Source: a virus (taxonomy: Duplodnaviria > Caudoviricetes). Taken from it: 61,029 nt of DNA. A program made the translations under genes and the position numbers. Numbering within the stretch: position 1 is the first letter of the stretch; every line of letters begins with the position of its first letter. The notes beneath the pieces were generated by a model, which worked only from the letters and a program-made list of their open reading frames with translations, searched no databases and was not told the DNA's origin. Where the stretch lies: IMG/VR virus record IMGVR_UViG_3300027985_000418, positions 1 to 61,029 of that record, one strand, 5' to 3'. Below, piece after piece: positions 1 through 61,029 of this stretch.

Positions 1-398
1 GATGTAAATTTGCTCGTGAATATGGACTGTTTTTCAAATGTAGCATTGTATTCTTTTACAACCCCACCATGACAATCTGATTTTAAAGGATTGTTTTCAA
101 GAAAGTCTGAAAGTAATTGTTTACTTAGAGATATTTTTTGAAGTTTGGCGTCATTTATATTTAATTCAATAAGGTCATATTTTTTATAAATATTAATTTC
201 ATCTTCTTCAAATCTTTCTTTAATACTATATAAAGTATTATCAAACGTTGGCATTTCGCTTTCAATAACATGTTTTCCAATTCCAAGCTTATCCAATAAT
301 TCATCGTTTACAGGTGAAGTTATAACTGTATTATCATTGATTATTTGCTCAACCGAAAGAATTTCTATGGGGTTACCATCTTTCATTAAATATTTCAT
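1..398 (-). CDS. Partial tail-fibre assembly-like protein (runs off the left edge)
   Basis: Not in the ORF track; ATG at 398 with AGGAGG RBS, open to position 1 (MKYLMKDGNPIEILSVEQ...SKQLLSDFLENNPLKSDCHGGVVKEYNATFEKQ); follows the tail fibre genes. Confidence 0.55.
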   Translation of the reverse strand, partial: MKYLMKDGNPIEILSVEQIINDNTVITSPVNDELLDKLGIGKHVIESEMPTFDNTLYSIKERFEEDEINIYKKYDLIELNINDAKLQKISLSKQLLSDFLENNPLKSDCHGGVVKEYNATFEKQSIFTSKFT

Positions 399-409
399 AC
401 AATTCCTCC

Positions 410-880
410 TTAATAATTAGACAAATATGGGTTATAAATATCAAGTATTATATAATCTTCTGTCATAATAGTAATATAAATTATGCCTGTAACATTTGAT
501 AAGTCTATTTTTACATTAGTAATATCTGTCCCTTTTGACCAACCTGCATTATAAACATCTTGATAATTTTCATTCCAACCTCTTGTTAATCTAACATATC
601 CATAATTCCCACTACCACTACCACCACCAGTTAAAACAACTAAATGGGGAATCACCAAATAATTATAATTGGTAACATCTATTGCAATATCATGTATTCC
701 CCACATAAAGCCTGTTCCACTATAGTATCGTAGTCTGTCGCTAACACTAAAATCCCTATAAGGTGCATAATAACTTAACATATTATTAAATGAATTATAT
801 CTTAAAGTATAATACAAACTAAAATCAGGCAGCACTTGATTCAACATTAATCTTCGTCTTGTTTCCGTAAACCAATCCAT
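410..880 (-). CDS. Tail fibre-associated / receptor-binding accessory protein
   Basis: N-terminal RRRLM motif common in small proteins after fibre genes; aromatic- and beta-rich; stop/start coupled to the fibre gene. Confidence 0.45.
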   Translation of the reverse strand: MDWFTETRRRLMLNQVLPDFSLYYTLRYNSFNNMLSYYAPYRDFSVSDRLRYYSGTGFMWGIHDIAIDVTNYNYLVIPHLVVLTGGGSGSGNYGYVRLTRGWNENYQDVYNAGWSKGTDITNVKIDLSNVTGIIYITIMTEDYIILDIYNPYLSNY

Positions 881-1989
881 TACACCACCCCATTAATTAT
901 AATAAATACTACACCATTATTCTTTTTAAATGACATTTCATAAAATTTGCTTGTTTTTGGTGTAAATACATTATTACTACAATCAGTACCACTTATTTTA
1001 CATCCTGTAGGCAAAGATACAGATATACTAGTTCCTGTTTTAAATGAAATATATCCATCTTTAAAACCACTTGCAAATGCCGTTATTATTAAGCTTGTAA
1101 GTGTGCCTAATTCATAAGCATAAATATTATCAAAAGTCGAAATGGTTTTGGTTGTTGATACTAAATCAGAAATATTGATTACTAGTGATGTAGGTTTATA
1201 TTGTGAGCCGTCATATATTTGCACTTGCCCAATTGTAGGCATAACATTAGATACATTTACACTTTGTATTGCAAAAGCATTAGTTTTCTGTGCTCCAGAT
1301 TCTATAGCAAAAATTCTGCTATTTAATAATTTACCTTGATTAGCCGACAACCCATTAACAATACTTGTTGAGGTTAAAACATTTTCAATAATATTGTTAG
1401 TTGCACCAGTAGCGATACTATCTAATTTTGCTTTATCAGCACTTGCCATTAAACCATTAGTCGAAGTGGTTGCAACAGGTTTATTAACATCAGATGTATT
1501 ATCCACATTACTTAGACCAACCATTGCTTTTGTTATACCATTTACTGTTCCAGTAAAAGTAGGACTATTTTTATCTGCTTTAGTATCATTTAGTATCTTG
1601 CCCTGGTTAGCAGACAATCCATTAACAGTGCTAGTTGAGGTAAGCGTATTTTCAATAATATTTGTATTGATCCATCTACCACCACCAATAGTTGGTGCAA
1701 TAATGTTAATATTATCATCTACGTCAGTATTGGCTCTAACAAAATAGAATATACCAATACCTATAACATTAATTAATTTACCATCAGTAAATATATCAAT
1801 ATCAGATGTATTTATCGCCCTTAATGTAGCTATGGATGATGTCGGTAGTATAATTGTCTTAATATTATTGATATATAAATTTTCTAATATTTCAATATTA
1901 TCTACAAACATCTTTTGTGGGTCAATTTTATCAAAACTAATATTCTGTGGTCTATTTAATCCACTATATGCTTTATTTATATGTGCCAT
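880..1989 (-). CDS. Tail fibre protein
   Basis: Fibre motifs VGLSNVDNTSD, GLMASADKAKLD and duplicated LTSTSxVNGLSANQGKxL; position after the baseplate genes. Confidence 0.75.
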   Translation of the reverse strand: MAHINKAYSGLNRPQNISFDKIDPQKMFVDNIEILENLYINNIKTIILPTSSIATLRAINTSDIDIFTDGKLINVIGIGIFYFVRANTDVDDNINIIAPTIGGGRWINTNIIENTLTSTSTVNGLSANQGKILNDTKADKNSPTFTGTVNGITKAMVGLSNVDNTSDVNKPVATTSTNGLMASADKAKLDSIATGATNNIIENVLTSTSIVNGLSANQGKLLNSRIFAIESGAQKTNAFAIQSVNVSNVMPTIGQVQIYDGSQYKPTSLVINISDLVSTTKTISTFDNIYAYELGTLTSLIITAFASGFKDGYISFKTGTSISVSLPTGCKISGTDCSNNVFTPKTSKFYEMSFKKNNGVVFIIINGVV

Positions 1990-2010
1990 ATATTATCCTC
2001 CTTTATATTA

Positions 2011-2625
2011 TTAATTACCTATATCGCCATATATTGTATTACTTAATTCATTATATGTTAATTGTGGTAATTCATAATAGTATGTTAATATTAGATTTAA
2101 AAATATAATATATGATACAATTCCAGATGCTTTAGAATCATTAATAGCATCTTGTATAATACTTCTTAGATCTTCACTAAATTCCCTATATTTAAGGTCT
2201 ATTATACATACAATAGTACCATATTCATAATCATCACTATATTCCCATCCATCATATACCTTAATTGCATTATTGATATCAGTATCTGGTAGATTTTGTA
2301 AATCCAAACTAATTGCAATAGCATATATAATAGATTGTTTTGTGCCACCAGATATTGATGTACACGATAATTTTAATCTATTTCTATATGCATCATCAGA
2401 TTCATTATATCTTTTTGGTATATTTAATAGACTTCCCCATCTATTATATAAATCACTACTATTAGTATTATTAATGCCTATTAAGTCATCAATTTGATTG
2501 ATTAATATTTGTAAATCATCTAATTCTTCTGAAATAGCCTTAATAATATTATAAATAATAGATCTTGTATCATCATAATTATAAAACTGTGGTATAGTAG
2601 ATAATATATTAGATAATCTATCCAT
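2011..2625 (-). CDS. Baseplate wedge protein (Mu gp48/XkdU-like)
   Basis: LYNRWGSLLNIPKRYNESDDAYRNRL motif; directly downstream of baseplate J. Confidence 0.7.
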   Translation of the reverse strand: MDRLSNILSTIPQFYNYDDTRSIIYNIIKAISEELDDLQILINQIDDLIGINNTNSSDLYNRWGSLLNIPKRYNESDDAYRNRLKLSCTSISGGTKQSIIYAIAISLDLQNLPDTDINNAIKVYDGWEYSDDYEYGTIVCIIDLKYREFSEDLRSIIQDAINDSKASGIVSYIIFLNLILTYYYELPQLTYNELSNTIYGDIGN

Positions 2626-3691: not shown

Positions 3692-3695
3692 TCTA

Positions 3696-4058: not shown

Positions 4059-4072
4059 CTCATTTATTTAAA

Positions 4073-4101
4073 ATTATAGTATATCCTATAAATATTGTAA
4101 A
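4073..4101 (-). promoter_or_regulatory. Putative internal promoter TTTACA-N17-TATAAT
   Basis: Near-consensus hexamers with a 17-bp spacer in an intergenic gap. Confidence 0.4.
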
Positions 4102-39650: not shown

Positions 39651-39801
39651 TGATATAAGGGTATGTCCACATTGTGGTAAAAGGTTTATATATAGACCTG
39701 CTACAATATATAAACACAAGCGAAATGGGATGACATACATATATTGTAGTTACACATGTTGGAGAGAAAATAGACCTAGAAAATACAGGAGGAAGCTATG
39801 A
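39634..39801 (+). CDS. Small zinc-finger protein
   Basis: CPHCGKRF...YCSYTC. Confidence 0.6.
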   Translation: MAVLDNDIRVCPHCGKRFIYRPATIYKHKRNGMTYIYCSYTCWRENRPRKYRRKL

Positions 39802-40400
39802 ATCATTTAATTATCATGAATGGAAAACCATTGTCTGGCAAAGACACATTCGTCAAACATTGTATGTTACATACCTTTGATATTGATTATTTATCATATG
39901 CATTTTCATCGATAGATCCAATCAAGGAGATATGTATAAAACTTGGTTGGGATAGTAGGACTAAAAATGATTATTGGCGAGATATTATGTATAAATTAAA
40001 ACAAATATGGATTGCATCATGTAATGGTCCTATGGTATATATATCTGACACAGTAATAGAAAGAATAAGGGTTAGTGGTCACAACAATAATATAATATTT
40101 GTTGATATTCGTGAGATATCTGAAATCGAAGCTGTTGTAGCAGAATTTAGTAGGCTATCATTTATCAAATGTCATACAGTATTAATTCATCGTGATGAAG
40201 TATCACACATTAATCATGGGAATGTCGCAGATGATGATGTCAATAATTATAAATACGATTATGTATTTAATAATATCGATATTAATGATATTGGTGCAAT
40301 TACAATAGCTTTCATTAATAATATTACACAGAATTCTGTGACAAAGAATATTAGTAATGGCAATTATATTAAAGAAACATTTATTGGAGGTATTAATTAA
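39798..40400 (+). CDS. P-loop (d)NMP kinase-like protein
   Basis: NGKPLSGKDT, DPIKE, DIRE and NVADDDV..YKYD motifs. Confidence 0.7.
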   Translation: MNHLIIMNGKPLSGKDTFVKHCMLHTFDIDYLSYAFSSIDPIKEICIKLGWDSRTKNDYWRDIMYKLKQIWIASCNGPMVYISDTVIERIRVSGHNNNIIFVDIREISEIEAVVAEFSRLSFIKCHTVLIHRDEVSHINHGNVADDDVNNYKYDYVFNNIDINDIGAITIAFINNITQNSVTKNISNGNYIKETFIGGIN

Positions 40401-44373: not shown

Positions 44374-44913
44374 ATGAAAACATGTATCGTAATGACTGGT
44401 TATCCATGTAGTGGTAAATCGGCAATAGGCAAAAGTGTAGCATTGTTACTCAAAATACCATATATATCATCTGGTGATATTGCAAGACAAATGGCTGAGG
44501 AAGAAATAAATGCAGATGTAAATACAGCATTAAAGAATGGTATGATGGCAACGGAAGACAAAATGAGATCGAGAATGTATGAAATATTAAAAGAAACCAT
44601 TAAACACAATAAAATATTTATATTAGATGGTTTCCCACGATTTGATGATCAAAGATTGTGGATAGAAAAGCAATTTGATATTAATTATGTATATATTGAC
44701 ATACAGGCACGTCTAGACAATATTCTAGCTAGAGCAAAATCTAGATGCAGACAAGACGATGATAAATCTATATTAATAAGACGTATAGAATGGTATGAAG
44801 AAAATACTATGCCAATGCTTAAACAAATAAATCCAATTGTAATATCTGGCGATGCGTCAATTGAAGATGCATCAAATGAATTGATTCGCATAATATCGGA
44901 GGTCATATTATAA
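44374..44913 (+). CDS. Adenylate kinase-family NMP kinase
   Basis: GYPCSGKS, ISSGDIAR, LDGFPR, R.DD...RR..Y...T.P motifs. Confidence 0.88.
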   Translation: MKTCIVMTGYPCSGKSAIGKSVALLLKIPYISSGDIARQMAEEEINADVNTALKNGMMATEDKMRSRMYEILKETIKHNKIFILDGFPRFDDQRLWIEKQFDINYVYIDIQARLDNILARAKSRCRQDDDKSILIRRIEWYEENTMPMLKQINPIVISGDASIEDASNELIRIISEVIL

Positions 44914-45398
44914 TGTTGGATTATACAATGTGGGTAGAATCAGTAGATCGATATGATTTTATTAATAATCCAACTGATGAAACACCATCTATTACAATAT
45001 GGTTTAGTGGTTGCACATTTAATTGTCCTGGATGTCACAATTATAGACTACAGAATAGAAATGAGGACCAACAAATTTCAGTAAATAGATTATTAAGTCA
45101 AGTAATAGAATATGCACAAAATGTTAAATCTATTGTATTACTTGGTGGTGAACCATTACAACAACCAAATATTATATTATTCCTAACAAAATTAAGGGAG
45201 ATATTAGGACATGGATATAAAATATGGTTATATACTGGTTATGAATTTGCTGATATACCAATCCCAATATTAAATTTAGTAGATATTGTTAAATGTGGTA
45301 AATTTGACAATACAAAATTAACTGGTGGTTTCCCATCATCATCCAATCAACAATTATGGAAATATACTACTGGATGGGATAAATTTACAATAAATTGA
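44913..45398 (+). CDS. nrdG: Anaerobic ribonucleotide reductase activase
   Basis: GCTFNCPGCHN radical-SAM motif, LGGEP, WLYTG, SSNQ. Confidence 0.92.
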   Translation: MLDYTMWVESVDRYDFINNPTDETPSITIWFSGCTFNCPGCHNYRLQNRNEDQQISVNRLLSQVIEYAQNVKSIVLLGGEPLQQPNIILFLTKLREILGHGYKIWLYTGYEFADIPIPILNLVDIVKCGKFDNTKLTGGFPSSSNQQLWKYTTGWDKFTIN

Positions 45399-45407
45399 TT
45401 ATGGGAG

Positions 45408-47372
45408 TTGACATCTATGAAAATAGGTATGAATTTAATTAAGGAATTTGAAGACCTGTATGATAGTTTTATCCAATCTGATAAAGGGTTGGAATTATTA
45501 AAAATCGAGGGCATTGCACCATCAGATTTAGATATTGGTATTCTAAGTCACAATTTCTTCGATAATAAGTTATCAGATATTGCAACAGATTCTAATTCAA
45601 ATGCAAATGAAGATATATCTCCAACAAGCTATCGTACATATACAACAAATGGTCAAATGAAATTACTTGGATATCATTTATTATGGTATTATGCTAATAG
45701 GAGATTTGGTCTAGAGTGGGCAAACCAAGCAATAACTGCTATATGGAGTGGTGATTTATATTTCCATGATGCACATGGTGTGAAGATCCAGATGCCATAC
45801 TGTTATGCGTTTAGTTTAGATAAACTGGTATTTGAGGGTAGACCTTATGGATCATCGCCAAATACACCACCTAAAAACAGAAAATCATTCTTATCACAAG
45901 TTGATAAGTTAATATCAGATTTGAGCAAACAATTTGCAGGTGCTACTGCACCGAGTGATTTCTTCCTATGGTATGCATATTATTGTAAACTGGAACATAT
46001 TGATATTGACACAGAAATCGGTAAACATACTGTGGTACAGGATATGCAGGGAATTGTTTGTTTATTTAATGAATCGAATCGTTCTGAGGGAGAACCACCA
46101 TTTACAAATTTGTCAATGTATGACTCTACAGGATTACATTCATTGTTTGGTCATATTGTATATCCAGACCATACAACACCAGATTTAGATTATATAATGA
46201 AATTACAAAATATATTCTGCGAATGGTTTAGTCATGGTGATCCTATTAGTGGATTCCCATATAAATTCCCAGTTGTAACCCAAAATTTAACTATTGATGA
46301 AAATCGAAATTTTGTAAATGAAAATGATGCCATGAATGTTGCAAGATTTAATTTGGAGAAGGGTAATTTTAATCTACATTTTGGTAAAAAGAATAAGATT
46401 GCTATGTGCTGTAGATATGAAAATGATCTTGATGACATGGAAATGACACCAGATTCATTTGGTAATGGTGGTGTTAATATCGGTTCTCATAGAGTCGCAA
46501 CACCAAATTATGGTAGAGCGGCATTATTAGCAAATAAGGATATTACGAAATTTATTGAAATTCTTGATGATTATTTTGATATTTGTGCAAAATTATTATA
46601 TATCCATCGTGTTGATATCCTACAAGGCAGGATTAACAAAAATCCACAATACCTCAAATTCTTTGGAAGTCTTGGATGGTTTGATTTGAATACAATGTTT
46701 AGTACATTTGGTGTTGTCGGTATATATGAAGCAATATCATTTTTAGGCTATGATATACTTGAAGACGATGGTACTGATCTTGGTATGGATATCATGCAAT
46801 ATATCAAGTCTAAAGTTAAACAATATAGAAACGAATATGGCTTTGTGTTTAATGCAGAGGAAATTCCAGGTGAGCAAGCTTGTGTATCATTATTGAATAA
46901 GGACAAGATCATAATAGATAAATCAACATTATCTAGTGATGTTGTTAGATTATTTGATGAATGCTATTTGTACTCAAATCAATATATACCATTAATAAAT
47001 AAAGCAGATATATTAACAAGAATTGATATATCTGGTAGATTCATGAATATGATATCTGGTGGTGGTATAGTACATGCAAATGTTGAAGCACCTATAGATA
47101 CTGTCGGCAAAATGTATGAATTAATGAAATTTACTGCTAAAAGTGGTGTACCACATATGGCTGTGTGTTATCGATTTGGTAGATGTAAATATCATAAGGC
47201 TACGATTATTGGACAAGATACGAAAGTATGTCCAATATGTGGAGAACCAATTGTACATACTAGGGCGAGAGTTATTGGATACTTTAGCGATGAGCATAAC
47301 TGGCATCCAGTAAGACAAGTTTACGATGCACCAAACCGTCACTATACAAAAAATGAACAAATAAACATCTAG
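45408..47372 (+). CDS. nrdD: Anaerobic (class III) ribonucleoside-triphosphate reductase
   Basis: YFHD, PYC, PFTN, FPV.T, MCCR, CPICG and glycyl-radical RVIGY motifs. Confidence 0.93.
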   Translation: MTSMKIGMNLIKEFEDLYDSFIQSDKGLELLKIEGIAPSDLDIGILSHNFFDNKLSDIATDSNSNANEDISPTSYRTYTTNGQMKLLGYHLLWYYANRRFGLEWANQAITAIWSGDLYFHDAHGVKIQMPYCYAFSLDKLVFEGRPYGSSPNTPPKNRKSFLSQVDKLISDLSKQFAGATAPSDFFLWYAYYCKLEHIDIDTEIGKHTVVQDMQGIVCLFNESNRSEGEPPFTNLSMYDSTGLHSLFGHIVYPDHTTPDLDYIMKLQNIFCEWFSHGDPISGFPYKFPVVTQNLTIDENRNFVNENDAMNVARFNLEKGNFNLHFGKKNKIAMCCRYENDLDDMEMTPDSFGNGGVNIGSHRVATPNYGRAALLANKDITKFIEILDDYFDICAKLLYIHRVDILQGRINKNPQYLKFFGSLGWFDLNTMFSTFGVVGIYEAISFLGYDILEDDGTDLGMDIMQYIKSKVKQYRNEYGFVFNAEEIPGEQACVSLLNKDKIIIDKSTLSSDVVRLFDECYLYSNQYIPLINKADILTRIDISGRFMNMISGGGIVHANVEAPIDTVGKMYELMKFTAKSGVPHMAVCYRFGRCKYHKATIIGQDTKVCPICGEPIVHTRARVIGYFSDEHNWHPVRQVYDAPNRHYTKNEQINI

Positions 47373-47386: not shown

Positions 47387-47935
47387 ATGAAGCAGTTACA
47401 GGTATTACGTAGTGAGATGGCTAAGGAATTCCCATTAATAGCAATCGCAAAAGATGGTGATGTTGGTATGGATTTATTTGCGTGTTTGCCATTAAAAGAA
47501 AATCATGAGCAATTACTTAAGGATTATTATGATGAATGTGGTCGCAAGGATGAAAAACCCTGTAGTATGGATTCACAATTTATCAAGGAATTAATTCATG
47601 AAACAATTACAATTATGCCAGGCGAAAGGGGTGTAATTCCAACAGGGATTAGATTAGGGTTACCATCAGATCGTTGGGCATCAATTGAAGCAAGAAGTAG
47701 TACATCAAAGAAAATGTTGGTAGTACCTAAAGGAGTTATTGACCAAGGATATCGTGGAGAATTATTTGCTGTCATATTGAACCTTGGGACAAATCCAGTA
47801 ACAATTTATCATGGCGACAGATATGTACAATTAATTCTGCATAAACGTGAGATTGCAGACATCGAAGTTATAGAGGTTGATAAATTATCAGAAACAGAAC
47901 GTGGAGATAGTGGTTTCGGATCAACTGGAAGATAG
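47387..47935 (+). CDS. dut: Trimeric dUTPase family protein with a ~35-aa insertion
   Basis: Motifs GMDL, IPTG, RSS, GVIDQGYRGE, GDRYVQL and RGDSGFGSTG. Confidence 0.85.
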   Translation: MKQLQVLRSEMAKEFPLIAIAKDGDVGMDLFACLPLKENHEQLLKDYYDECGRKDEKPCSMDSQFIKELIHETITIMPGERGVIPTGIRLGLPSDRWASIEARSSTSKKMLVVPKGVIDQGYRGELFAVILNLGTNPVTIYHGDRYVQLILHKREIADIEVIEVDKLSETERGDSGFGSTGR

Positions 47936-49022: not shown

Positions 49023-49949
49023 ATGCCAAAGATTACATATACTGATCTTCATATTCACTCAGAATTTAGCCTTCAAGACGGTATGATTAAAATTGCTGAT
49101 GATGATGATCCAAAGCATATTAAAACCGAATTAATTGAAATAGTTGAAAAACGTGGTACAGGTGCAGTAACTATTACAGACCATGGTAATATGTATGGAC
49201 ATGCAAGTTTGGCTTCAGTATGTCGCACATTTGGATTAAAACATATTCCAGGATGTGAATTCTATATAGCAACAGATTCTAGACATGATAAATCATATAC
49301 AAAACGTAGCGATAGTTATATGCATATCAATGCATGGGCAAAAAATAAGATTGGTTATGCTAATATGTGTAGATTGCAAAAAATATCATTCAATGAGGGT
49401 TTCTATTATGTGCCACGTATAGATAAAGAATTAATAGAAAAATATCATGATGAAATAATGTGGTCTGATGCTTGTATTGGTGGTACAATTTGTTCACATA
49501 TAATGACAGGTAATATCGATAAGGCATATGAAGAATTTATGTGGTATTTAAATCTATTAAGAGATGATTTCTATATAGAGTATCATAATCATCATATTGA
49601 TGATGAGGATGTGTGCAACAAATACAAAGTAGAATGGGCAAATAAACATGGTGTACCAATTATTGCATGTACCGATTCGCACTTTGTAAGAAAAGATGAT
49701 ATTGATGCACACAAAGCATTATTATGTATACAATATGGTAAGGTATATGATGATCCGACATTCAATGGGTTTCCTGGCGATGGATATTGGTTGATGAATG
49801 AGAATGAATTAATTGAAAGATTCCCAATTGAATATCTCAATAATACACAATTAATTGTTAATAAAGTTGATAATGGAATTATTGAATTTGGTGATATTAG
49901 ACCACCACAATTCAAAATTCCACAATGGTTTAAGGAGGAATTAAAATGA
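49023..49949 (+). CDS. dnaE: Stand-alone PHP domain of DNA polymerase III alpha (N-terminal part of a split DnaE)
   Basis: DLHIHSEFSLQDG, ITDHGNMYG, GCEFY, FYYVPRID, SDACIGG, TDSH; ends at the PHP/core linker PQFKIP. Confidence 0.9.
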   Translation: MPKITYTDLHIHSEFSLQDGMIKIADDDDPKHIKTELIEIVEKRGTGAVTITDHGNMYGHASLASVCRTFGLKHIPGCEFYIATDSRHDKSYTKRSDSYMHINAWAKNKIGYANMCRLQKISFNEGFYYVPRIDKELIEKYHDEIMWSDACIGGTICSHIMTGNIDKAYEEFMWYLNLLRDDFYIEYHNHHIDDEDVCNKYKVEWANKHGVPIIACTDSHFVRKDDIDAHKALLCIQYGKVYDDPTFNGFPGDGYWLMNENELIERFPIEYLNNTQLIVNKVDNGIIEFGDIRPPQFKIPQWFKEELK

Positions 49950-50095
49950 TAACAGAAAATCAAAAGCAATATATTCTAGGTCTATATAAGGATTTAGATA
50001 TGGAATGTGAAACATATTTAGATGGGTTAACAAAATCACAGGCAAGCGATTTAATACAAGAATTAATCGCATTAAAGGAGGAACAAGATGGATAA
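49946..50095 (+). CDS. Small hypothetical protein (LTKxQASxLI motif)
   Basis: AAGGAGG RBS, ATGA overlap; MITENQKQYILGL...LTKSQASDLIQEL. Confidence 0.65.
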   Translation: MITENQKQYILGLYKDLDMECETYLDGLTKSQASDLIQELIALKEEQDG

Positions 50096-50301
50096 ATTAA
50101 AATTAAGATCTTGTACATTCAAAGTCTTTGATGATACATCACTTGAATGGGTAGAAAGGATGGCTATTTTCACCAATGGGTTCTTCATACGAAGAATTTA
50201 ATGTTATCGATAGTGTAATGCAAATAACGGTTGCAATTATCGAAGATACGACAGGTCAAATATATAAAGTAATACCATTATATATTAAATTTATAAATTA
50301 G
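50088..50301 (+). pseudogene. Doubly frameshifted small phage gene (or consensus errors)
   Basis: Adding one A and one G in homopolymers near 50156-50180 restores ...EKDGYFHQWGSSYEEF...TVAIIEDTTGQIYKV...IKF. Confidence 0.55.
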
Positions 50302-50310
50302 GAGGTTACT

Positions 50311-50676
50311 ATGAGTATTATTAAGGATTTATTAAATAAGAAAAAAGAAGTCGGTGGTTATAATATAACTGTTAATGATGCATCTGATAATCTAATAAAT
50401 GAAACATTCACAACAAATAAATGGAGTCATAGTTGGTTAGCACAAGTGTCTAAGCAACATAATTTTGTCATTAATGACGATATGAAAAAAGTTAATGGTG
50501 TATTAGATGCACTTAATCGTAAATCTGGACAATGTCCATGTGGGGGTACTGGTGAACAATTTAAATGTCCATGTACAATTATGAGAGAACATGGGATATG
50601 TAAGTGTGGTCTTTTTAAAAGTATACCAAATAGACCTATTACAGGCAGATCCGATACTCCACAAATAATAAAATAA
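50311..50676 (+). CDS. Ferredoxin-thioredoxin reductase catalytic subunit-like protein
   Basis: CPC...CPC...CKCGLF motif set. Confidence 0.8.
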   Translation: MSIIKDLLNKKKEVGGYNITVNDASDNLINETFTTNKWSHSWLAQVSKQHNFVINDDMKKVNGVLDALNRKSGQCPCGGTGEQFKCPCTIMREHGICKCGLFKSIPNRPITGRSDTPQIIK

Positions 50677-50691
50677 ATCAATAATAATTAT

Positions 50692-50720
50692 TTTATAGAT
50701 CACTTAATGTGGTCTATATT
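50692..50720 (+). promoter_or_regulatory. Putative middle promoter upstream of the DnaE core
   Basis: TTTATA-N17-TATATT. Confidence 0.5.
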
Positions 50721-50759
50721 TATGTTAGGAAATTCAATAAATCTATTAGGAGGTATACA

Positions 50760-53699
50760 ATGGAAAAGAGTATGTCGGAACAATATCTATGGAGATTAAT
50801 ACATGATGGCTTATATAAATTGTATGGTGATAATATACCACAAGAAGTTATTGATCGCATTAATATTGAAATGGATGTAATCGTTCCAAACAAATTTGAT
50901 GATTATATCCTAGTTATATGGGATATACATGATTTCTGCAAAACACCATCAAGGGTATTTGAATTCTGTGAGAGAAAAGGAATTACACCACCACCAGATG
51001 GTATTATACCATTAGGTCCAGGCAGAGGATCTGTGGGCGGATCATATGTATGTTATTGTATTGGTATCCATGAATGTGATCCGTTATTATTTGGTCTTTA
51101 TTTTGAAAGATTCTTAAATCCTGAACGTATTGCATATCCCGATATAGATTTTGATATCAGTCAAAAATATAGACATATAGGATTAGCTTATATTGCAGAC
51201 ACATATGGCGAAGAATACGTATCACAAATCATTACATATGGTACATTATCATTAAAAACGGTAATACATGATGTAATGGTTACTGCATGTATACCAAATT
51301 CTGTTATTAATACTGTGAAAGCAACAATTCCAGATGATCCATCAATTACATTATCTAAAATGTTAGACGATAAAAAATTTATAGATGCATTAAATGCTAT
51401 TGAATTTCCTAATCAAATATTTACCGTCGATGCTTCAAATATACAACGTATTATTAATAATAATAAATTTGAATGCGATGATGATAAAATTAATAAACAT
51501 AATAGGGAAACTATATTAGGTATAATGTCAAAAACAATACAATCTGGCACATTAATTATCAAATCATCATGGAATGTTGACAGATTGATATACGTCATGA
51601 GTAGATTAGAGGGATTATGTAAAAATGAGTCTACGCATGCTGCAGGAGTAGTAGTTGCACCAGTAACTTTGGAAGATAATATACCACTATTTAGAAAAAG
51701 TGGTACTGGTGTATTAGCAAGTCAATATGATATGATATCGCTTGAAGAAATCGGATATCTTAAGATGGATGCACTTGGATTACGTACAGTTGATGTTAAT
51801 CATGAAGCTGAGAGATTGGTGAAGCAATGGTATGATCCACAGTTCTCAATCAGAGATATACGATATGATGATAAGGATACAATTGATCTTATTAATAGTG
51901 GCGATACAATTGGTATATTCCAGATAGAATCAACTGGATTTACTAAAATGATGCAAGACCTTGATATTGGTGGATATGAAACAGAAAGATATGCTGATCG
52001 TAATAATAATCTATTATCACAGGTAGAGAAGATACGTGGATTAGAGGTTAAAGATTTTATGTGGATATCTGCAGGATTAGCATTATATCGCCCTGGACCA
52101 TTAGATGCGATTATTGATGGCAAAACAATGGTACAGCATCTAATAGATCGTAAGTCTGGCAAAGAGCCTATAATCTATCTATTTGACGAAGAAAAAGGAT
52201 ACCTAGAAGAAACATATGGTGTACTAGTATATCAAGAGCAGGTTATGGCGAGAGTTAGACAAATGACAGGATGCTCACTTGGTAGAGCCGATATTTTACG
52301 TAAGGCAATGGGTAAGAAGAATCCTGTGTTAATGAAAGAACAGATGGATTGGTTCGTAGAATCTGCTATGAAACATCAATTTTCTGAAAAAATAATAGTA
52401 AATAAATCCCAAATAGTTGATAGAGCAAAAGAAGAAATAGAAAAATTCGCTAGATATGGATTTAATAAGGCTCATACAGTAGAATACGGACATATATGTT
52501 ATCGTAATGCATACTTCAAAAAACATTATCCTACAGCATTCTATACAGCGATATTAAATTCAGAAAATGGTAATCCAAAAAGACAAACAATATTAATCAG
52601 AGATATGTTGGCACATGATATACAGCTATCTCCACCAGATATTAACAAGTCAGATTTAGAATTTACTATGACAGACATTAATACAATAAGCTTTGGGTTA
52701 TCATCAATTAAGAATATTGGTGGCAGGGCAGTTGGTACAATTATTGATGATAGATCAAAAAATGGTGATTATAAATCATTACATGATTTTCGTATCAGAA
52801 TACCATCAACCGATTGTAATATTACTGGTATTACAAATCTAGCAAAATGTGGTGCATTTGATAATATTTGTATCAATGTTGATGGTGAGTATAGTTTTAA
52901 TAATAGAGCATCATTGGTAGAAACAATACCTGGTATATGTGATATTATTAAGAAATTATCTGCTAAAAAGGGAAAGGACAAACCTAAGCCAACTGTGGCA
53001 GAGGTTAAACAAAAATGGATTAATGGTGGATATAAATATTCAATAATACATGGAGAAGATGATCCTATTCAATATGCATTGTGGGAAAAAGAGATATTAA
53101 CATATTATATTTCTGCACATCCAATAGATAAATATACTGACGAAATACGCAGGTATGGTTCAATAGAAGATACTGAATTGGAAGATCTTCCTAATGAATT
53201 TTATATCGTTGGATTTGTTGAAAGTTGTCATGAAACAGTAATAAAAAAAGAGGGTAGGAACAAAGGCAAGGCAATGGGATTCTTGTCTATTGGTACTGCA
53301 TATAAAATGTATGAAGCTACTATGTTCCCAGGTATTTATGAATCATGTTTACCATATATAAAAACAGGTAATCCAATAGTATTAAAAGGTAAACGTGACA
53401 CTTATCGTGATGTTGTAACAATACAATGTATATATGTTAGAGGTATTACAAATACTGGAGTGAGAGATTGTCCAGAATGTCATTTGAGGATAGATAAATC
53501 TATTACACCTGCCCAAATTATTCAATTAAAATCAATATGTAATGAGCATCCAGGAATGACAAAAATGTTTATACACATATTAGATGGATACAATGATATT
53601 ACAATTGAATGCACACAAACGATAGCATTGAATGATCATATTATTGAATTTGCAGAATCTATTGGACAATTATCATATAAACCGATTCCATTAAAATAA
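50760..53699 (+). CDS. dnaE: DNA polymerase III alpha core (family C) lacking the PHP domain
   Basis: GPGRGSVGGS, FERFLNPER, PDIDFD, HAAGVV, KMDALGL, LYRPGP, YQEQ, FNKAH, HhH and OB fold; AGGAGGT RBS. Confidence 0.95.
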   Translation: MEKSMSEQYLWRLIHDGLYKLYGDNIPQEVIDRINIEMDVIVPNKFDDYILVIWDIHDFCKTPSRVFEFCERKGITPPPDGIIPLGPGRGSVGGSYVCYCIGIHECDPLLFGLYFERFLNPERIAYPDIDFDISQKYRHIGLAYIADTYGEEYVSQIITYGTLSLKTVIHDVMVTACIPNSVINTVKATIPDDPSITLSKMLDDKKFIDALNAIEFPNQIFTVDASNIQRIINNNKFECDDDKINKHNRETILGIMSKTIQSGTLIIKSSWNVDRLIYVMSRLEGLCKNESTHAAGVVVAPVTLEDNIPLFRKSGTGVLASQYDMISLEEIGYLKMDALGLRTVDVNHEAERLVKQWYDPQFSIRDIRYDDKDTIDLINSGDTIGIFQIESTGFTKMMQDLDIGGYETERYADRNNNLLSQVEKIRGLEVKDFMWISAGLALYRPGPLDAIIDGKTMVQHLIDRKSGKEPIIYLFDEEKGYLEETYGVLVYQEQVMARVRQMTGCSLGRADILRKAMGKKNPVLMKEQMDWFVESAMKHQFSEKIIVNKSQIVDRAKEEIEKFARYGFNKAHTVEYGHICYRNAYFKKHYPTAFYTAILNSENGNPKRQTILIRDMLAHDIQLSPPDINKSDLEFTMTDINTISFGLSSIKNIGGRAVGTIIDDRSKNGDYKSLHDFRIRIPSTDCNITGITNLAKCGAFDNICINVDGEYSFNNRASLVETIPGICDIIKKLSAKKGKDKPKPTVAEVKQKWINGGYKYSIIHGEDDPIQYALWEKEILTYYISAHPIDKYTDEIRRYGSIEDTELEDLPNEFYIVGFVESCHETVIKKEGRNKGKAMGFLSIGTAYKMYEATMFPGIYESCLPYIKTGNPIVLKGKRDTYRDVVTIQCIYVRGITNTGVRDCPECHLRIDKSITPAQIIQLKSICNEHPGMTKMFIHILDGYNDITIECTQTIALNDHIIEFAESIGQLSYKPIPLK

Positions 53700-57775: not shown

Positions 57776-57776
57776 A

Positions 57777-58841: not shown

Positions 58842-58863
58842 ACAATAATGTAACAATATAAAT

Positions 58864-58906
58864 AAGAGCCACCGATATTATTAAGCTTCGGTGGCTCTTT
58901 CTTTAT
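58864..58906. terminator. Bidirectional intrinsic terminator where the two arms converge
   Basis: AAGAGCCACCGA/TCGGTGGCTCTT 12-bp stem flanked by A- and T-rich tracts. Confidence 0.85.
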
Positions 58907-58996
58907 GTTTTGTTTAATCTGTCTTTAGTTTCTCTTAATTGTTAAATGAATTGTAAACATTGCATCGTACATAAAGACAATTGAATGTTTGACATT

Positions 58997-59410: not shown

Positions 59411-59446
59411 AATATGTCTCCTATATTGTCTATTTATTTATGTAAT

Positions 59447-59794
59447 TTATTCAGATATCTCGGCATTGATTATTTCAGTTTCTTGCTGTATTAATGCTTT
59501 TGGAGGAGATATTCCAAAGATTTTATATAAATTCATTGCTATCTTTGTAGCATACAATAATATACCACCAGTTAGAATAGCAAGGGCATCAACTACTCCA
59601 AGATTTATATAAGTTGAAGCTATTGCAAGAGAAACTACTGCAAAAGCAATAATGAAAGCTTTAATAATTCCATTAATCAAGGTCTTTTTGCTAAATGGAA
59701 TTTTCTCTTTTCCTACCTTGTTATATAAACCTGTTAGAATGTTTGCTACCATTAGTAAAAACAATATGCCCAGTAGTTTTAAAATAATTGTCAT
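59447..59794 (-). CDS. Holin
   Basis: Three TM segments; FSKKTLINGIIK motif; next to the endolysin. Confidence 0.75.
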   Translation of the reverse strand: MTIILKLLGILFLLMVANILTGLYNKVGKEKIPFSKKTLINGIIKAFIIAFAVVSLAIASTYINLGVVDALAILTGGILLYATKIAMNLYKIFGISPPKALIQQETEIINAEISE

Positions 59795-59809
59795 TAGTAT
59801 TCCTCCCTT

Positions 59810-60685
59810 CTATTCCAAAGCTGTTTTAACTTTATTTATCTTTGCTCTAAGTTCATTACATTGAGCACAATAGTTATCTCTATCTTTTGTAATAGCAGAC
59901 AACTGAAATTTTAAAGCATCAATCTCTTTATCTTTACTTGCAATTATTTTATCCTTTTCAGCAATAATTGCAGAGTAGTCAGTAGTAGTATCTTTTACAG
60001 GAATCTTAATAACATCACCAGGGTGAATAACGTGATTTTCAGAAAATCCATTAATCTGTAATATTTCCTTATATCTATTACCATCGCCTAATACTGATTG
60101 AGCAATTTTCCAAAAACTATCATTAGCTTTAACTATATAATCTGCAGAATTTGTAGGAGAAACAATCAATTGTTTATTAACCTGTTCAGCAATGTAAGGG
60201 AATTTTCCACCTAAGTAAGGACCAGGACAAGTAGTCGCTATGAAATACTTGTGCATTGTAAGATTTCCATTTGCATTTCCTGTAAAATTAATCTTCTGAA
60301 TTCCATTCCTCTTACATATATCAACACATAATGTAATTAGAGTATTAAGAGCCTTGTCCGAAACATGCCAATCTGGTGCACCACCATCATTAGCAACCTC
60401 AATAGTAATTGCGTGATAATCATTAGCAGGATTAGAACTAGTCCATGCTCTGTCTTTCTCATCAACATATAATGCAATTCTGCCATCAGTACCTATTCCA
60501 TAATTTGAAGAACCTTGTCTTGTAGGGTTAGCAAAAGCATTACCAATAGTTTCAATAGCACCATTACAAGCCATGTGGTGAATTGTAATCTTATCAATTA
60601 TACCCTTAGGGTTGTAAGTGTTATGCACTCTCCCAACATTTTTGTTAGGAGATATTTTTGTGTAGCAAATTAAAGAACTATTCAT
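59810..60685 (-). CDS. Endolysin: N-acetylmuramoyl-L-alanine amidase (Amidase_2) + LysM + coiled coil
   Basis: ITIHH, SSNYGIG, RAWTSS, ITIEVAN, HKYF..TTCPG; LysM YIVKANDSFWKIA. Confidence 0.92.
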   Translation of the reverse strand: MNSSLICYTKISPNKNVGRVHNTYNPKGIIDKITIHHMACNGAIETIGNAFANPTRQGSSNYGIGTDGRIALYVDEKDRAWTSSNPANDYHAITIEVANDGGAPDWHVSDKALNTLITLCVDICKRNGIQKINFTGNANGNLTMHKYFIATTCPGPYLGGKFPYIAEQVNKQLIVSPTNSADYIVKANDSFWKIAQSVLGDGNRYKEILQINGFSENHVIHPGDVIKIPVKDTTTDYSAIIAEKDKIIASKDKEIDALKFQLSAITKDRDNYCAQCNELRAKINKVKTALE

Positions 60686-60773
60686 CTTTATCATCACCCT
60701 TTCCATTTGATAATTCAGCTAAAGCATTTTCATCAGATTCAATATCTAATAATTCCTCTAGTAAATTGTCCAT
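60678..60773 (-). CDS. 31-aa acidic peptide upstream of the endolysin
   Basis: GGAGGA RBS; MDNLLEELLDIESDENALAELSNGKGDDKDE; overlaps the amidase start. Confidence 0.5.
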   Translation of the reverse strand: MDNLLEELLDIESDENALAELSNGKGDDKDE

Positions 60774-60785
60774 CCTTTTATCCTC

Positions 60786-61029
60786 CTAAATAATTTTATA
60801 TTTTGGTTTATCTTCATTAAACCATTTATATCGTATTATATCATCAAGAACAATTCCTACACCCGAAAGCCAAAACCAAATGAAGCTAAATTGAGGACAT
60901 ATTTGCCCTTTAAAATTAAAAGGCAATTCAGCATAATCCCAAACGTTCCACCCAAGCTTTATATTTACTATGTATCCGACTATAAACTCCAGTATGGTGG
61001 TTATAACTGCACCGATAAGCATTTGTAAC
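60786..61029 (-). CDS. Partial membrane protein, CmpB/DUF1113 'putative ABC permease' family
   Basis: ITTILEFIVG...WNVWDY..LPFNFKGQICP motif; begins beyond the right edge. Confidence 0.75.
   Translation of the reverse strand, partial: LQMLIGAVITTILEFIVGYIVNIKLGWNVWDYAELPFNFKGQICPQFSFIWFWLSGVGIVLDDIIRYKWFNEDKPKYKII

What the first reader, a model, noticed from the sequence alone, without database searches (positions are those of the whole stretch)
1..61029. Genome-wide absence of GC-only 4-bp palindromes while A-containing palindromes are abundant
Seen (manual scan, needs computing): about 200 GCC and about 100 CGG trinucleotides, but no GGCC, CCGG, GCGC or CGCG in 61 kb. GATC, TGCA, GTAC, AGCT, CATG, TCGA, CCWGG and GGWCC occur freely; GCSGC is still present. 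Established: Z blocks most restriction enzymes whose sites contain A but cannot protect G/C-only sites. Inference: selection purged only the sites Z cannot shield, which is independent evidence that the purZ pathway is active and long-standing here.
Basis: partly seen in the sequence, partly recalled or inferred. Interest (0 to 1): 0.8.

Follow-up and report, generated by a model that had tools for sequence, protein, structure and literature searches.

The report
Restriction-site purge in a purZ phage
This phage genome has lost every copy of four short G/C-only palindromes, plus a dozen other G/C-rich words that bacterial restriction enzymes cut; this is a familiar phage escape trick, and its bias towards G/C-rich sites may reflect the phage's adenine-replacing DNA base.

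Summary
GGCC, CCGG, GCGC and CGCG all occur 0 times in 61,029 bp. About 65 are expected from maximal-order Markov models and about 69 from synonymous-codon shuffles, and 0 of 200 shuffles reached zero.

The claimed selectivity is wrong as stated. At least 13 further words with one or two A/T positions are purged just as hard:
- GGNNCC: 0 observed
- CCAGC: 0 vs 37 expected
- AGCTC: 0 vs 33
- GAGGC: 0 vs 16
- CCYGA: 11 vs 65
- CASTG, CCTTC and GTCTC

Five purZ-carrying relatives differ in which sites they lack; one keeps 280 GGCC. purZ-less Bacillus phages also lack GGCC, CCGG and CGCG. So this is ordinary host-driven restriction-site avoidance, not a Z signature in itself.

A weaker form of the idea survives. 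AT-rich 6-bp palindromes are purged in 2 of 210 testable cases in seven genomes of this purZ clade, against 44 of 359 in 14 purZ-less Bacillota phages. GATC is untouched here. This fits published data that sites with many dZ resist cleavage.

The purZ gene has the diagnostic Asp-to-Ser change. DatZ, DUF550 and DpoZ were not found; MazG was not searched as a family. Z in the DNA is unproven and the host is unknown.

The parts
1..61029 (.). Genome-wide, strand-symmetric absence of GGCC, CCGG, GCGC and CGCG, and of 13 further G/C-rich words with 1-2 A/T positions. These include AGCTC, CCAGC, GAGGC, GCTCC, CCTGA, CACTG, CCTTC, GAGAC, GACCC, AGCCC, ACGCC, ACGAC and CACCTC, together with all of GGNNCC.
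   Evidence: Markov models and the REBASE site list; 200 codon shuffles; both orientations and both gene-strand halves equally empty; 1,846 testable words, 32 avoided, 16 minimal; the few residual sites are scattered.
33145..34323 (+). purZ-type adenylosuccinate synthetase homologue, 392 aa.
   Evidence: PF00709 at 1.7e-45. PDB matches: archaeal PurA 2d7u at 2e-45, PhiVC8 PurZ 6fm1 at 4e-36, S-2L PurZ 7odx at 1e-27. The P-loop reads QAGSCGKGK, with Ser where PurA has Asp13. SH-Ab 15497 and PMBT28 PurZ have Ser at the same place.
47387..47935 (+). Dut-like protein of the trimeric dUTPase family, 182 aa with a ~70-aa N-terminal extension. It is a candidate DutZ-type dATP/dGTP hydrolase.
   Evidence: PF00692 at 1.5e-19; PDB dUTPases at 1e-19. 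It is conserved next to NrdD in all relatives and in vB_BpsS-140. It is 42-43% identical to the Dut-like genes of the purZ+ Arthrobacter phages Joann and Pumancara, against 29% to Staphylococcus phage 80alpha Dut and no hit in 15 other panel genomes. Its substrate is inferred, not shown.
44374..44913 (+). Adenylate-kinase-like nucleotide kinase. It could phosphorylate dZMP or dZDP (inferred).
   Evidence: PF00406 at 1.3e-13. It lies in the same position in vB_BpsS-140, where it is annotated adk, and is conserved in the relatives.
39798..40400 (+). Deoxynucleoside monophosphate kinase.
   Evidence: phrog_139 at 2.9e-10.
38721..39650 (+). ThyX thymidylate synthase.
   Evidence: PF02511 at 5.8e-28.
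44913..47372 (+). Anaerobic ribonucleotide reductase: activase NrdG (44913-45398) and NrdD (45408-47372).
   Evidence: PF13353/PF04055 and PF13597 at 8.4e-72.
49023..53699 (+). Replicative polymerase of the Pol III alpha type, split into a PHP-domain protein (49023-49949) and a polymerase core (50709-53699). It is not a PolA-type DpoZ.
   Evidence: PF02811, PF07733, PF17657 and PF14579. The closest isolate is vB_BpsS-140 at 31% identity.
41676..44291 (+). DnaG primase fused to a DnaB-like helicase.
   Evidence: PF03796, PF08275, PF01807 and PF13155.
59810..60706 (-). Endolysin (Amidase_2 + LysM). It points to a Gram-positive-type host.
   Evidence: PF01510 at 1.7e-19 and PF01476. The atlas neighbours are phage or Bacillota amidases (leads only).

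Best explanation
The window is a nearly complete (CheckV 93%) 61-kb genome of a tailed phage of an unidentified low-GC host, probably Gram-positive.

The total lack of GGCC, CCGG, GCGC and CGCG is restriction-site avoidance. Host Type II restriction enzymes cut incoming phage DNA at these palindromes, and lineages that lost the sites through synonymous and neutral changes survived. The four palindromes are only the most visible part of a wider purge. That purge also covers GGNNCC and at least 13 other G/C-rich words with one or two A/T positions. Several match known specificities (NlaIV, TspRI, HpyAV, BsmAI, CjeNV types).

The phage carries no DNA methyltransferase of the three main families, so it relies on site loss. 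It probably also relies on replacing adenine by 2-aminoadenine (Z), made through PurZ. Z most likely explains what is not purged, namely GATC and the AT-rich palindromes that purZ-less Bacillota phages commonly lose. Enzymes whose sites hold many A:T pairs tend to be blocked by Z, whereas sites with zero to two A:T pairs stay cleavable.

Shown: the counts, the null models, strand symmetry, the variation among relatives, the PurZ signature and the contrast with purZ-less phages.

Inferred: that restriction enzymes are the selective agent, that Z is actually in the DNA, and that Z is why AT-rich sites are spared.

My odds: restriction avoidance about 0.9, Z made by this clade about 0.7, Z shaping the spectrum about 0.5.
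For: - Zero counts against 11-32 expected under two independent nulls.
- Only the palindromic GC-only 4-mers are missing.
- The purge is equal on both strands and in both gene-orientation halves.
- Among the 618 distinct REBASE sites in Biopython, those with at least 8 expected were ranked, and the most depleted are CCYGA, CASTG, GGNNCC, GGCC, CCTTC and GTCTC.
- No match to PF01555, PF00145 or PF02086 methyltransferases in the window.
- The purge differs by lineage among purZ+ relatives, as expected for host-specific enzyme sets. For GGCC, CCGG, GCGC and CGCG: G004 has 0/33, 0/42, 2/28, 1/17; G006 has 0/38, 1/43, 32/44, 0/24; G001 has 280/244, 173/182, 88/136, 6/109.
- PurZ has Ser at the Asp13 position in the window, 5 of 5 fetched relatives and vB_BpsS-140. 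That change is reported in 100% of 147 phage PurZ (PMC12884076, section read).
- AT-rich (4 or more A/T) 6-bp palindromes with E>=8 and O/E<=0.2: purZ clade 2 of 210 (per genome 1,1,0,0,0,0,0). The 14 purZ-less Bacillota phages give 44 of 359, with 13 of 14 genomes showing at least one. One-sided Mann-Whitney p = 0.0004, and 0.0006-0.011 under four other settings.
- G/C-rich 5-mers are purged at similar rates: 73 of 614 in the clade vs 152 of 1,092 in the controls. Restriction pressure is therefore comparable.
- Same-host pair on Bacillus pseudalcaliphilus: vB_BpsS-140 (purZ+) has 0 of 31 AT-rich palindromes avoided and GATC at 333 vs 233. vB_BpsS-36 (purZ-) has 9 of 26 avoided and GATC at 0 vs 102.
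- Yang et al. [quoted passage not shown] BsaI, ApeKI, BstYI, SalI and ApoI cut dZ DNA, and HpaII is unaffected.
- Akhwale et al. 2019 (PMC6483233, passages read): DraI digested all the phage DNAs except vB_BpsS-140, which has 18 TTTAAA in its first 50 kb.
Against: - The host is unknown, so no cognate restriction enzyme is shown (searches failed).
- Z in virion DNA is untested for this whole clade.
- No HD-domain DatZ, no DUF550 (which had no positive control) and no PolA-type polymerase were found.
- Z does not prevent purging of A-containing sites elsewhere. purZ+ Salmonella phage PMBT28 has GATC at 2 vs 222 and CCAGG at 0 vs 170. Relatives G003 and G001 have GATC O/E of 0.31 and 0.48.
- Some purZ-less phages also show no AT-rich purge: 80alpha 0 of 30 and Gordon 0 of 24.
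- The seven purZ-clade genomes are one lineage.
- Six of the 14 controls are one family, and two of those (DZ1, MVC_VPHSA2) are 91% identical.
- Hosts differ between the groups, and there is only one same-host pair.
- CCAGC, GAGGC and AGCTC match no 5-bp site in the list used.
- Words such as CTGAAG recur as 'avoided' in many unrelated genomes. This may be real Type IIG pressure or a weakness of the codon-shuffle null.
- The 2019 gel statements are partly at odds with the sequences. EcoRI is said to cut all the genomes, yet BpsS-36 has 0 GAATTC in 50,000 of its 50,485 bp.
Confidence: 0.55

Rival explanations
1. Host repertoire only. The purge is restriction-site avoidance, but its bias towards G/C-rich words simply mirrors which enzymes the unknown hosts happen to carry. 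Z, present or not, plays no part in shaping it.
For: - The purge set changes from one purZ+ relative to the next.
- purZ-less phages show the same GC-only purge.
- In purZ-less phages too, most avoided 5-mers are G/C-rich. With at most 1 A/T, 152 of 1,092 are avoided; with 3 or more A/T, 24 of 3,584.
- 80alpha (0 of 30) and Gordon (0 of 24) lack AT-rich avoidance without purZ.
- PMBT28 purges GATC despite purZ.
Against: - The 12-fold lower rate at AT-rich palindromes (2 of 210 vs 44 of 359) sits alongside a similar rate at G/C-rich words.
- The same-host pair BpsS-140 vs BpsS-36 differs in the same direction.
- Seven genomes with different purge sets, and hence presumably different hosts, all spare AT-rich palindromes.
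- The direction agrees with enzyme assays on dZ DNA (PMC12944874).
Confidence: 0.38
2. Z shields every A-containing site, so selection removed only the G/C-only palindromes. On this view the pattern is independent proof of an active, ancient Z pathway.
For: Among 4-bp palindromes alone the split is perfect: 4 of 4 GC-only are absent and 12 of 12 A/T-containing are present. purZ is conserved across the clade.
Against: - At least 13 A/T-containing words and all the A/T-containing forms of GGNNCC are purged to 0-20% of expectation.
- 47% of 147 tested enzymes cut dZ DNA (PMC12944874).
- purZ+ relatives G001 and G003 keep GGCC, CCGG and GCGC.
- purZ- phages lose these sites as well.
Confidence: 0.03
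3. Not selection on sites at all, but a by-product of low G+C content, CpG shortage, codon usage or a mutational bias.
For: CpG is depleted overall: 731 CG against 1,480 GC dinucleotides. The genome is 30% G+C, so G/C-only words are rare in any case.
Against: - GGCC holds no CpG and is the most depleted 4-mer (z = -6.6).
- CpG-containing non-palindromic GC-only 4-mers are at or above expectation.
- Markov models and codon-preserving shuffles both expect 11-32 copies of each palindrome.
- Depletion is strand-symmetric.
Confidence: 0.02

Closest known systems
Restriction-site avoidance in phage genomes (surveyed by Rusinov et al. 2018, BMC Genomics, PMC6286503; title and start of abstract seen in the listing)
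   Same: Short palindromic Type II recognition sites are missing far below compositional expectation, genome-wide and on both strands, in a phage without its own methyltransferases. The same GC-only palindromes are missing in purZ-less Bacillus and Clostridium phages analysed here.
   Different: Nothing in kind. The breadth is notable (16 minimal words at O/E<=0.2). The near-complete sparing of AT-rich palindromes and GATC is unusual relative to the 14 purZ-less Bacillota phages compared.
Z-genome (2-aminoadenine) phages with PurZ: S-2L, PhiVC8, Acinetobacter SH-Ab 15497, Salmonella PMBT28
   Same: A PurA-family enzyme with Ser at the Asp13 position, embedded in a nucleotide-metabolism and replication module.
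   Different: Only 30-34% identical to those PurZ. No DatZ (HD) or DUF550 was found, MazG was not searched as a family, and the polymerase is Pol III alpha rather than PolA DpoZ or PrimPol. Z content is untested.
Bacillus phage vB_BpsS-140 (MH884512), the closest isolated phage
   Same: PurZ is 42% identical and Pol III alpha 31%. The gene order is the same: nuclease, purZ, helicase, DnaG-DnaB, adk, dut, sigma factor, Pol III. The purge is similar: GGCC 0/48, CGCG 0/58, CCGG 4/41, AGCTC 6/57, CCTGA 9/55, GAGGC 1/38, with no AT-rich word.
   Different: The structural module is different (TerL not among the top hits). G+C is 40% against 30%. GCGC is not purged there (28 vs 62).
Wayne/Ghobes-type PurZ0 phages with DutZ (Poubanne et al. 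2026, PMC12884076; abstract and four Results sections read)
   Same: They lack DatZ and MazZ and carry a Dut-like gene. The window's Dut-like protein is 42-43% identical to those of the purZ+ Arthrobacter phages Joann and Pumancara.
   Different: PurZ is only 27-29% identical to the Arthrobacter PurZ. No NDT/DmtZ gene was seen among the ORFs scanned. The polymerase type differs. Whether this PurZ falls in the PurZ0 or the PurZ branch was not tested by a tree.

Membership tests
Restriction-site avoidance | Sites significantly rarer than composition- and codon-aware nulls predict | tested here: met
   0 observed vs 31.6, 15.5, 12.2 and 6.0 expected. 0 vs 20.2, 17.0, 20.2 and 11.4, with 0 of 200 shuffles reaching zero.
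Restriction-site avoidance | Acts on double-stranded DNA: strand-symmetric, genome-wide and independent of gene orientation | tested here: met
   Word and reverse complement are equally absent in the minus-gene half and the plus-gene half. Residual sites are scattered.
Restriction-site avoidance | Missing words correspond to known restriction specificities | tested here: inconclusive
   Matched: GGCC, CCGG, GCGC, CGCG, GGNNCC, CASTG, CCYGA, CCTTC, GTCTC, GGGTC and GCTCC. No 5-bp match in that list for CCAGC, GAGGC or AGCTC.
Restriction-site avoidance | The host encodes the cognate enzymes | not testable with these tools
   Host not identified. The NrdD scans of genome contigs found nothing, there are no tRNAs, and the lysin gives only a broad lead.
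PurZ (2-aminoadenylosuccinate synthetase) | Adenylosuccinate synthetase family | tested here: met
   PF00709 at 155.9 bits against a cut-off of 27; PDB PurA and PurZ matches.
PurZ (2-aminoadenylosuccinate synthetase) | Catalytic Asp13 of PurA replaced by Ser (100% of 147 phage PurZ, PMC12884076) | tested here: met
   The query reads GSCGKGK where P. horikoshii PurA has GDEGKG. It aligns with GSTGKG of SH-Ab 15497 and PMBT28.
Z-genome phage (complete pathway) | dATP-clearing enzyme: DatZ (HD domain) or DutZ | tested here: inconclusive
   No HD domain. A Dut-like gene is present and conserved, and is closest to those of purZ+ Arthrobacter phages. Its substrate is unknown.
Z-genome phage (complete pathway) | dGTP/dATP pyrophosphohydrolase: MazZ or DUF550/DUF5664 | tested here: not met
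   PF04447 has no match, but the search had no positive control. No MazG-type hit among the 30 distinct ORFs scanned against Pfam. MazG itself was not searched as a family.
Z-genome phage (complete pathway) | Z-selective polymerase: DpoZ (PolA) or PrimPol | tested here: not met
   The only polymerase found is of the Pol III alpha type. Its base selectivity is unknown.
Z-genome phage (complete pathway) | 2-aminoadenine replaces adenine in virion DNA | not testable with these tools
   The only lead is indirect. DraI failed to digest vB_BpsS-140 DNA (PMC6483233) although there are 18 sites in 50 kb.

The most novel reading that the evidence does not exclude
Replacing A by Z reshapes a phage's restriction-avoidance spectrum in a way that can be read from sequence alone. 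Z-genome phages stop purging sites rich in A:T pairs (GATC-type and AT-rich 6-bp palindromes). They keep purging sites with zero to two A:T pairs as hard as ordinary phages do. The avoidance spectrum would then be a sequence-only indicator of a working Z pathway, and a map of which restriction enzymes Z does and does not defeat in nature. It would apply here to an unstudied purZ clade that uses Pol III alpha and a Dut-like enzyme instead of DpoZ, DatZ and MazZ. My searches of the paper library found no such analysis.
Probability: 0.4. Interest if true: 0.6.

Novelty: new member of a known kind. Interest (0 to 1): 0.42.

Why it matters
As posed, the finding is a clear but ordinary example of restriction-site avoidance, and it cannot serve as proof of Z-DNA.

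Its value lies in three things:
- It corrects the idea that Z makes A-containing sites irrelevant. Words with one or two A/T positions are purged as completely as G/C-only palindromes. This agrees with enzyme data showing that about half of tested enzymes still cut dZ DNA.
- It gives a first, small comparative signal that purZ phages spare AT-rich sites. If that holds on a large, host-matched data set, it would offer a sequence-only readout of DNA base replacement in uncultured phages.
- It points to a purZ clade spanning 30-48% G+C, with Pol III alpha and a Dut-like gene, whose Z pathway is not one of the characterised architectures.

Tried and rejected
**Close relatives among isolated phages.** Megablast of 5.7 kb found none.

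**Host identification.**
- NrdD as a single protein found nothing in genome contigs, nor did a 3-sequence alignment.
- No tRNA genes.
- The endolysin's atlas neighbours are only phage or Bacillota amidases.
- Earlier notes of this scan: none for this genome.

**purZ-less close relatives.** None is available. 4 of 4 relatives that are at least 90% complete carry purZ, as do 2 of the 6 incomplete ones. The 4 records without a match are 32-66% complete fragments and say nothing.

**Neighbour of purZ as DatZ.** The 158-aa ORF at 34320-34796 has no Pfam, PHROG or PDB match.

**Markov-based hint that GATC and CATG are avoided** (z = -5.6 and -6.3). Rejected, because codon shuffles expect 181 and 175 against 195 and 189 observed.

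**Share of avoided words with at least 50% A/T as the test statistic.** This gave only p = 0.06, two-sided, with 11 purZ+ vs 9 purZ- genomes. The palindrome-based statistic is sharper, but I chose it after seeing the data, so it needs an independent test set.

**Accession KU160640.** Not in the collection.

**Not seen.** Table S1 of Yang et al. 2026 lists per-enzyme results on dZ DNA and could directly confirm or refute sensitivity of NlaIV, TspRI, HpyAV and BsmAI. S3 Table of Akhwale et al. 2019 was also not seen. Supplements are closed.

Full report
**What the window is.** The 61,029-bp window is a whole IMG/VR virus record with a CheckV completeness of 93% and 30.4% G+C.
- Structural genes lie mostly on the minus strand up to about 22 kb; TerL is at 19556-21346.
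- A replication and nucleotide-metabolism module follows on the plus strand. It holds a PD-(D/E)XK nuclease, a PurA-family gene (33145-34323), a helicase, ThyX, a dNMP kinase, a DnaG-DnaB fusion, an adenylate-kinase-like protein, NrdG and NrdD, a Dut-like protein, a sigma factor, a PHP protein, Pol III alpha, RNase H and a ligase.
- An Amidase_2-LysM endolysin suggests a Gram-positive-type host.
- No isolated phage is close at the DNA level. The nearest is Bacillus phage vB_BpsS-140, with PurZ 42% and Pol III alpha 31% identical and the same module order.

**Check of the observation.**
- GGCC, CCGG, GCGC and CGCG each occur 0 times. Maximal-order Markov expectations are 31.6, 15.5, 12.2 and 6.0.
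- I called 75 ORFs (91% of the sequence) and shuffled synonymous codons genome-wide 200 times, which keeps every protein and the codon usage. Expectations are 20.2, 17.0, 20.2 and 11.4. The lowest values over the 200 shuffles are 8, 7, 8 and 3.
- Non-palindromic GC-only 4-mers are at or above expectation, apart from CCCG/CGGG at 7 vs 25.5. GGCC holds no CpG. Low G+C, CpG shortage and codon usage therefore do not explain the gap.
- All twelve A/T-containing 4-bp palindromes are present. GATC and CATG look low against Markov but not against codon shuffles (195 vs 181, 189 vs 175).

The purge is much wider and includes words with A/T.
- Against maximal-order Markov: GGTACC 0 vs 11.9, GGATCC 0 vs 11.8, GGCACC/GGTGCC 0 vs 10.6, GGAACC/GGTTCC 0 vs 7.5. 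All of GGNNCC is absent.
- Against codon shuffles: CCAGC 0 vs 36.6, AGCTC 0 vs 32.5, GAGGC 0 vs 15.8, GCTCC 2 vs 30.8, CCYGA 11 vs 64.5, CASTG 7 vs 35.4, CCTTC 8 vs 50.7, GTCTC 3 vs 31.8, GGGTC 2 vs 15.3.
- I scanned all 4- to 6-mers, merging reverse complements, with E>=12 and O/E<=0.2. Of 1,846 testable words 32 are avoided, and these reduce to 16 minimal words. None has more than two A/T positions.
- Among AT-rich 6-bp palindromes only AGTACT is low (2 vs about 10).
- The depletion is the same for each word and its complement, and the same in the minus-gene and plus-gene halves. It therefore acts on duplex DNA.
- Among the 618 distinct REBASE sites shipped with Biopython, I ranked those with at least 8 expected under an order-2 model. 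The most depleted are CCYGA (CjeNV), CASTG (TspRI), GGNNCC (NlaIV), GGCC, CCTTC (HpyAV) and GTCTC (BsmAI). CCAGC, GAGGC and AGCTC have no 5-bp entry there.
- The window has no match to the three main DNA methyltransferase families.

**Relatives.** TerL and Pol III alpha searches of IMG/VR found a family of contigs with 62-72% protein identity.
- All 4 records that are at least 90% complete carry a PurA-family gene, as do 2 of the 6 incomplete ones. PurZ identity to the window is 63-67%.
- G+C in the five I fetched whole ranges from 36% to 48%.
- Their purges differ:

| Genome | GGCC | CCGG | GCGC | CGCG | Other purged words |
|---|---|---|---|---|---|
| G004 | 0/33 | 0/42 | 2/28 | 1/17 | AGCTC 1/62, CCAGC 5/62, GAGGC 0/42 |
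| G006 | 0/38 | 1/43 | 32/44 (kept) | 0/24 | CTAG 5/54 |
| G002 | not purged | 8/111 | not purged | 4/97 | none of these |
| G001 | 280 observed (kept) | 173 (kept) | 88 (kept) | 6/109 | none of these |
| G003 | 59 (kept) | 106 (kept) | 72 (kept) | 9/29 | GATC 64 vs 206 |

- purZ is old in this clade, but the purge of GC-only palindromes is not. It tracks lineage and presumably host.

**Is the gene a purZ, and is the pathway complete?**
- The protein matches PF00709. In the PDB it matches archaeal PurA, PhiVC8 PurZ and S-2L PurZ.
- Where PurA has GDEGKG it reads GSCGKG. It aligns with GSTGKG of the SH-Ab 15497 and PMBT28 PurZ, and all relatives share the Ser.
- Poubanne et al. 2026 (PMC12884076, section read) report this Asp-to-Ser change in 100% of 147 phage PurZ sequences.
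- I found no HD-domain DatZ, no DUF550 (which had no positive control) and no PolA polymerase.
- A Dut-like gene sits next to NrdD in every relative and in vB_BpsS-140. It is 42-43% identical to the Dut-like genes of the purZ+ Arthrobacter phages Joann and Pumancara, 29% to a staphylococcal phage dUTPase, and absent from the other 15 panel genomes.
- The same paper shows that Dut-like enzymes of PurZ0 phages hydrolyse dATP and dGTP. A similar role here is an inference.
- Z in the DNA of this clade has not been measured. One indirect lead exists. Akhwale et al. 2019 (PMC6483233, passages read) state that DraI digested all their phage DNAs except vB_BpsS-140, whose first 50 kb hold 18 TTTAAA. 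Other statements in that passage fit the sequences poorly, so I give it little weight.

**Testing the interpretation against other phages.** I applied the same codon-shuffle scan (60-100 shuffles per genome) to 28 genomes in all:
- the window and 5 relatives;
- vB_BpsS-140;
- 4 other purZ+ phages (Joann, Pumancara, SH-Ab 15497, PMBT28);
- 14 purZ-less Bacillota phages (BpsS-36, DZ1, MVC_VPHSA2, 056SW001B, Curly, GBK1, SPP1, A118, P35, sk1, phiCD119, phi3626, 80alpha, phiCTP1);
- 3 purZ-less Arthrobacter phages.

purZ status was checked with PF00709 for 18 of these records. For 10 of the 18 it was also checked by tblastn, which covered 15 genomes beside the window. BpsS-36, DZ1 and MVC_VPHSA2 were judged purZ-less from their record annotation only.

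For BpsS-36, BpsS-140 and MVC_VPHSA2 only the first 50,000 bases were used. For Laroye 60,000 of 60,005 bases were used.

Three results follow.
1. The GC-only purge is not special to purZ phages. BpsS-36 lacks all four palindromes. Five Andromeda-like Bacillus and Geobacillus phages lack or nearly lack GGCC, CCGG and CGCG. phiCTP1 lacks GGCC and GCGC.
2. purZ does not stop the purging of A-containing sites. PMBT28 has GATC at 2 vs 222 and CCAGG at 0 vs 170. Joann and Pumancara lack CTCGAG, GAGCTC, GTCGAC and GGATCC.
3. AT-rich sites behave differently. For 6-bp palindromes with 4 or more A/T, E>=8 and O/E<=0.2:
   - the purZ clade has 2 avoided of 210 testable (per genome 1,1,0,0,0,0,0);
   - the 14 purZ-less Bacillota phages have 44 of 359 (9,2,2,3,5,8,4,2,2,1,2,1,0,3);
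   - one-sided Mann-Whitney p = 0.0004, or 0.0006 without GATC-containing words, and 0.0008 to 0.011 under other thresholds.

   GATC O/E is 0.2 or lower in 8 of the 14 purZ-less phages and in 0 of 7 clade genomes. G/C-rich 5-mers are purged at similar rates (73 of 614 vs 152 of 1,092), so overall restriction pressure is comparable. The one same-host pair agrees: vB_BpsS-140 has 0 of 31 and GATC at 333 vs 233, while vB_BpsS-36 has 9 of 26 and GATC at 0 vs 102.

**How this fits enzyme data.** Yang et al. 2026 (PMC12944874; abstract, sections 3.1 and 4, legends and Table 1 read) tested 147 enzymes on 98.6% dZ DNA.
- 33% were blocked fully or mostly, 20% partly, and 47% cut normally.
- BsaI (GGTCTC), ApeKI (GCWGC), BstYI, SalI and ApoI cut dZ DNA. 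AvaII (GGWCC) was blocked. HpaII was unaffected.
- This matches the window. GTCTC and GCWGC are depleted (3 vs 32, 13 vs 26), GGWCC only mildly, and AT-rich sites not at all.
- Their per-enzyme Table S1 was not available to me.

**Limits.**
- The host is unknown.
- The purZ clade is a single lineage.
- Six controls are one family, and two of them are 91% identical.
- Hosts differ between the groups.
- Two purZ-less phages (80alpha 0 of 30, Gordon 0 of 24) also spare AT-rich palindromes.
- I chose the palindrome statistic after seeing the first results. A broader statistic gave only p = 0.06.
- Some words (CTGAAG, CATCTC, GACATC) recur as avoided in many unrelated genomes. This may reflect widespread Type IIG or IIS enzymes, or a codon-pair effect that the null ignores.

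**Verdict.** It is restriction-site avoidance, a known phenomenon (Rusinov et al. 2018, PMC6286503, listing and abstract start seen). The claim that only Z-unshieldable sites were purged, and that the pattern independently proves an active, ancient Z pathway, is not supported. A graded version is plausible: Z spares sites rich in A:T pairs while sites with zero to two A:T pairs remain under selection. I put that at about even odds. I found no published analysis of it in three library searches.

Noticed in passing
window 1-61029; also G004, G006, vB_BpsS-140 (L056) and vB_BpsS-36 (L055): Three fully purged 5-mers have no 5-bp entry in the REBASE list used: CCAGC/GCTGG (0 vs 37), AGCTC/GAGCT (0 vs 33) and GAGGC/GCCTC (0 vs 16). 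They are also purged in relatives and in both Bacillus pseudalcaliphilus phages. Examples: GAGGC is 0/42 in G004, 0/28 in G006, 1/38 in BpsS-140 and 0/82 in BpsS-36; AGCTC is 1/62, 8/52 and 6/57. They are candidate undescribed restriction specificities, or parts of degenerate sites.
   Followed up: partly
relatives G001-G004 and G006 (loci L036-L054): One phage family (TerL 68-72% identical, PurZ 63-67%) spans 30% to 48% G+C. Its members have very different purge sets, which implies hosts of quite different composition.
   Followed up: partly
Salmonella phage PMBT28, MG641885 (L098-L100): This purZ/datZ/mazZ phage, whose genes were used to make dZ plasmids in PMC12944874, has almost no GATC (2 vs 222) or CCAGG (0 vs 170). 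These are the Dam and Dcm target sequences of its host, so selection on them persists in a Z-pathway phage.
   Followed up: no
Bacillus phage vB_BpsS-36, MH884513 (L055): Avoidance is extraordinarily broad. There are 81 minimal words at O/E<=0.2, including 9 of 10 GC-only 4-mers, GATC (0 vs 102), TCGA (9 vs 97) and 9 of 26 AT-rich 6-bp palindromes. This is far more than in any other genome of the panel.
   Followed up: no
OR670592 (L058) versus OR338916 (L057): The record named Staphylococcus phage MVC_VPHSA2 is 91% identical over 45 kb to Bacillus cereus phage DZ1 and shares its purge list. The host label of one of the two looks doubtful.
   Followed up: partly
many panel genomes: CTGAAG/CTTCAG (the AcuI/Eco57I-type site) is at O/E<=0.2 in 16 of the 28 genomes analysed, across Bacillota, Actinomycetota and Proteobacteria phages, with or without purZ. 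CATCTC, GACATC and GAAGAC also recur. This is either very widespread Type IIG/IIS pressure or a codon-pair effect that the shuffle null does not model.
   Followed up: no
window 49023-49949 and 50709-53699: The Pol III alpha-type replicase is split. A free-standing PHP-domain protein is separated by about 0.75 kb, holding a small ORF, from a core that begins directly with the polymerase domain. Whether this polymerase discriminates Z from A is unknown.
   Followed up: no
window 34320-34796 and 34886-35947: The two ORFs just downstream of purZ have no or only marginal family matches. The 158-aa ORF has none; the 353-aa ORF matches an SSB-like PHROG weakly at 3e-4. In vB_BpsS-140 the corresponding stretch holds an HNH gene, a hypothetical gene and recA. 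The 158-aa ORF occupies the place where datZ sits in some Z phages.
   Followed up: partly
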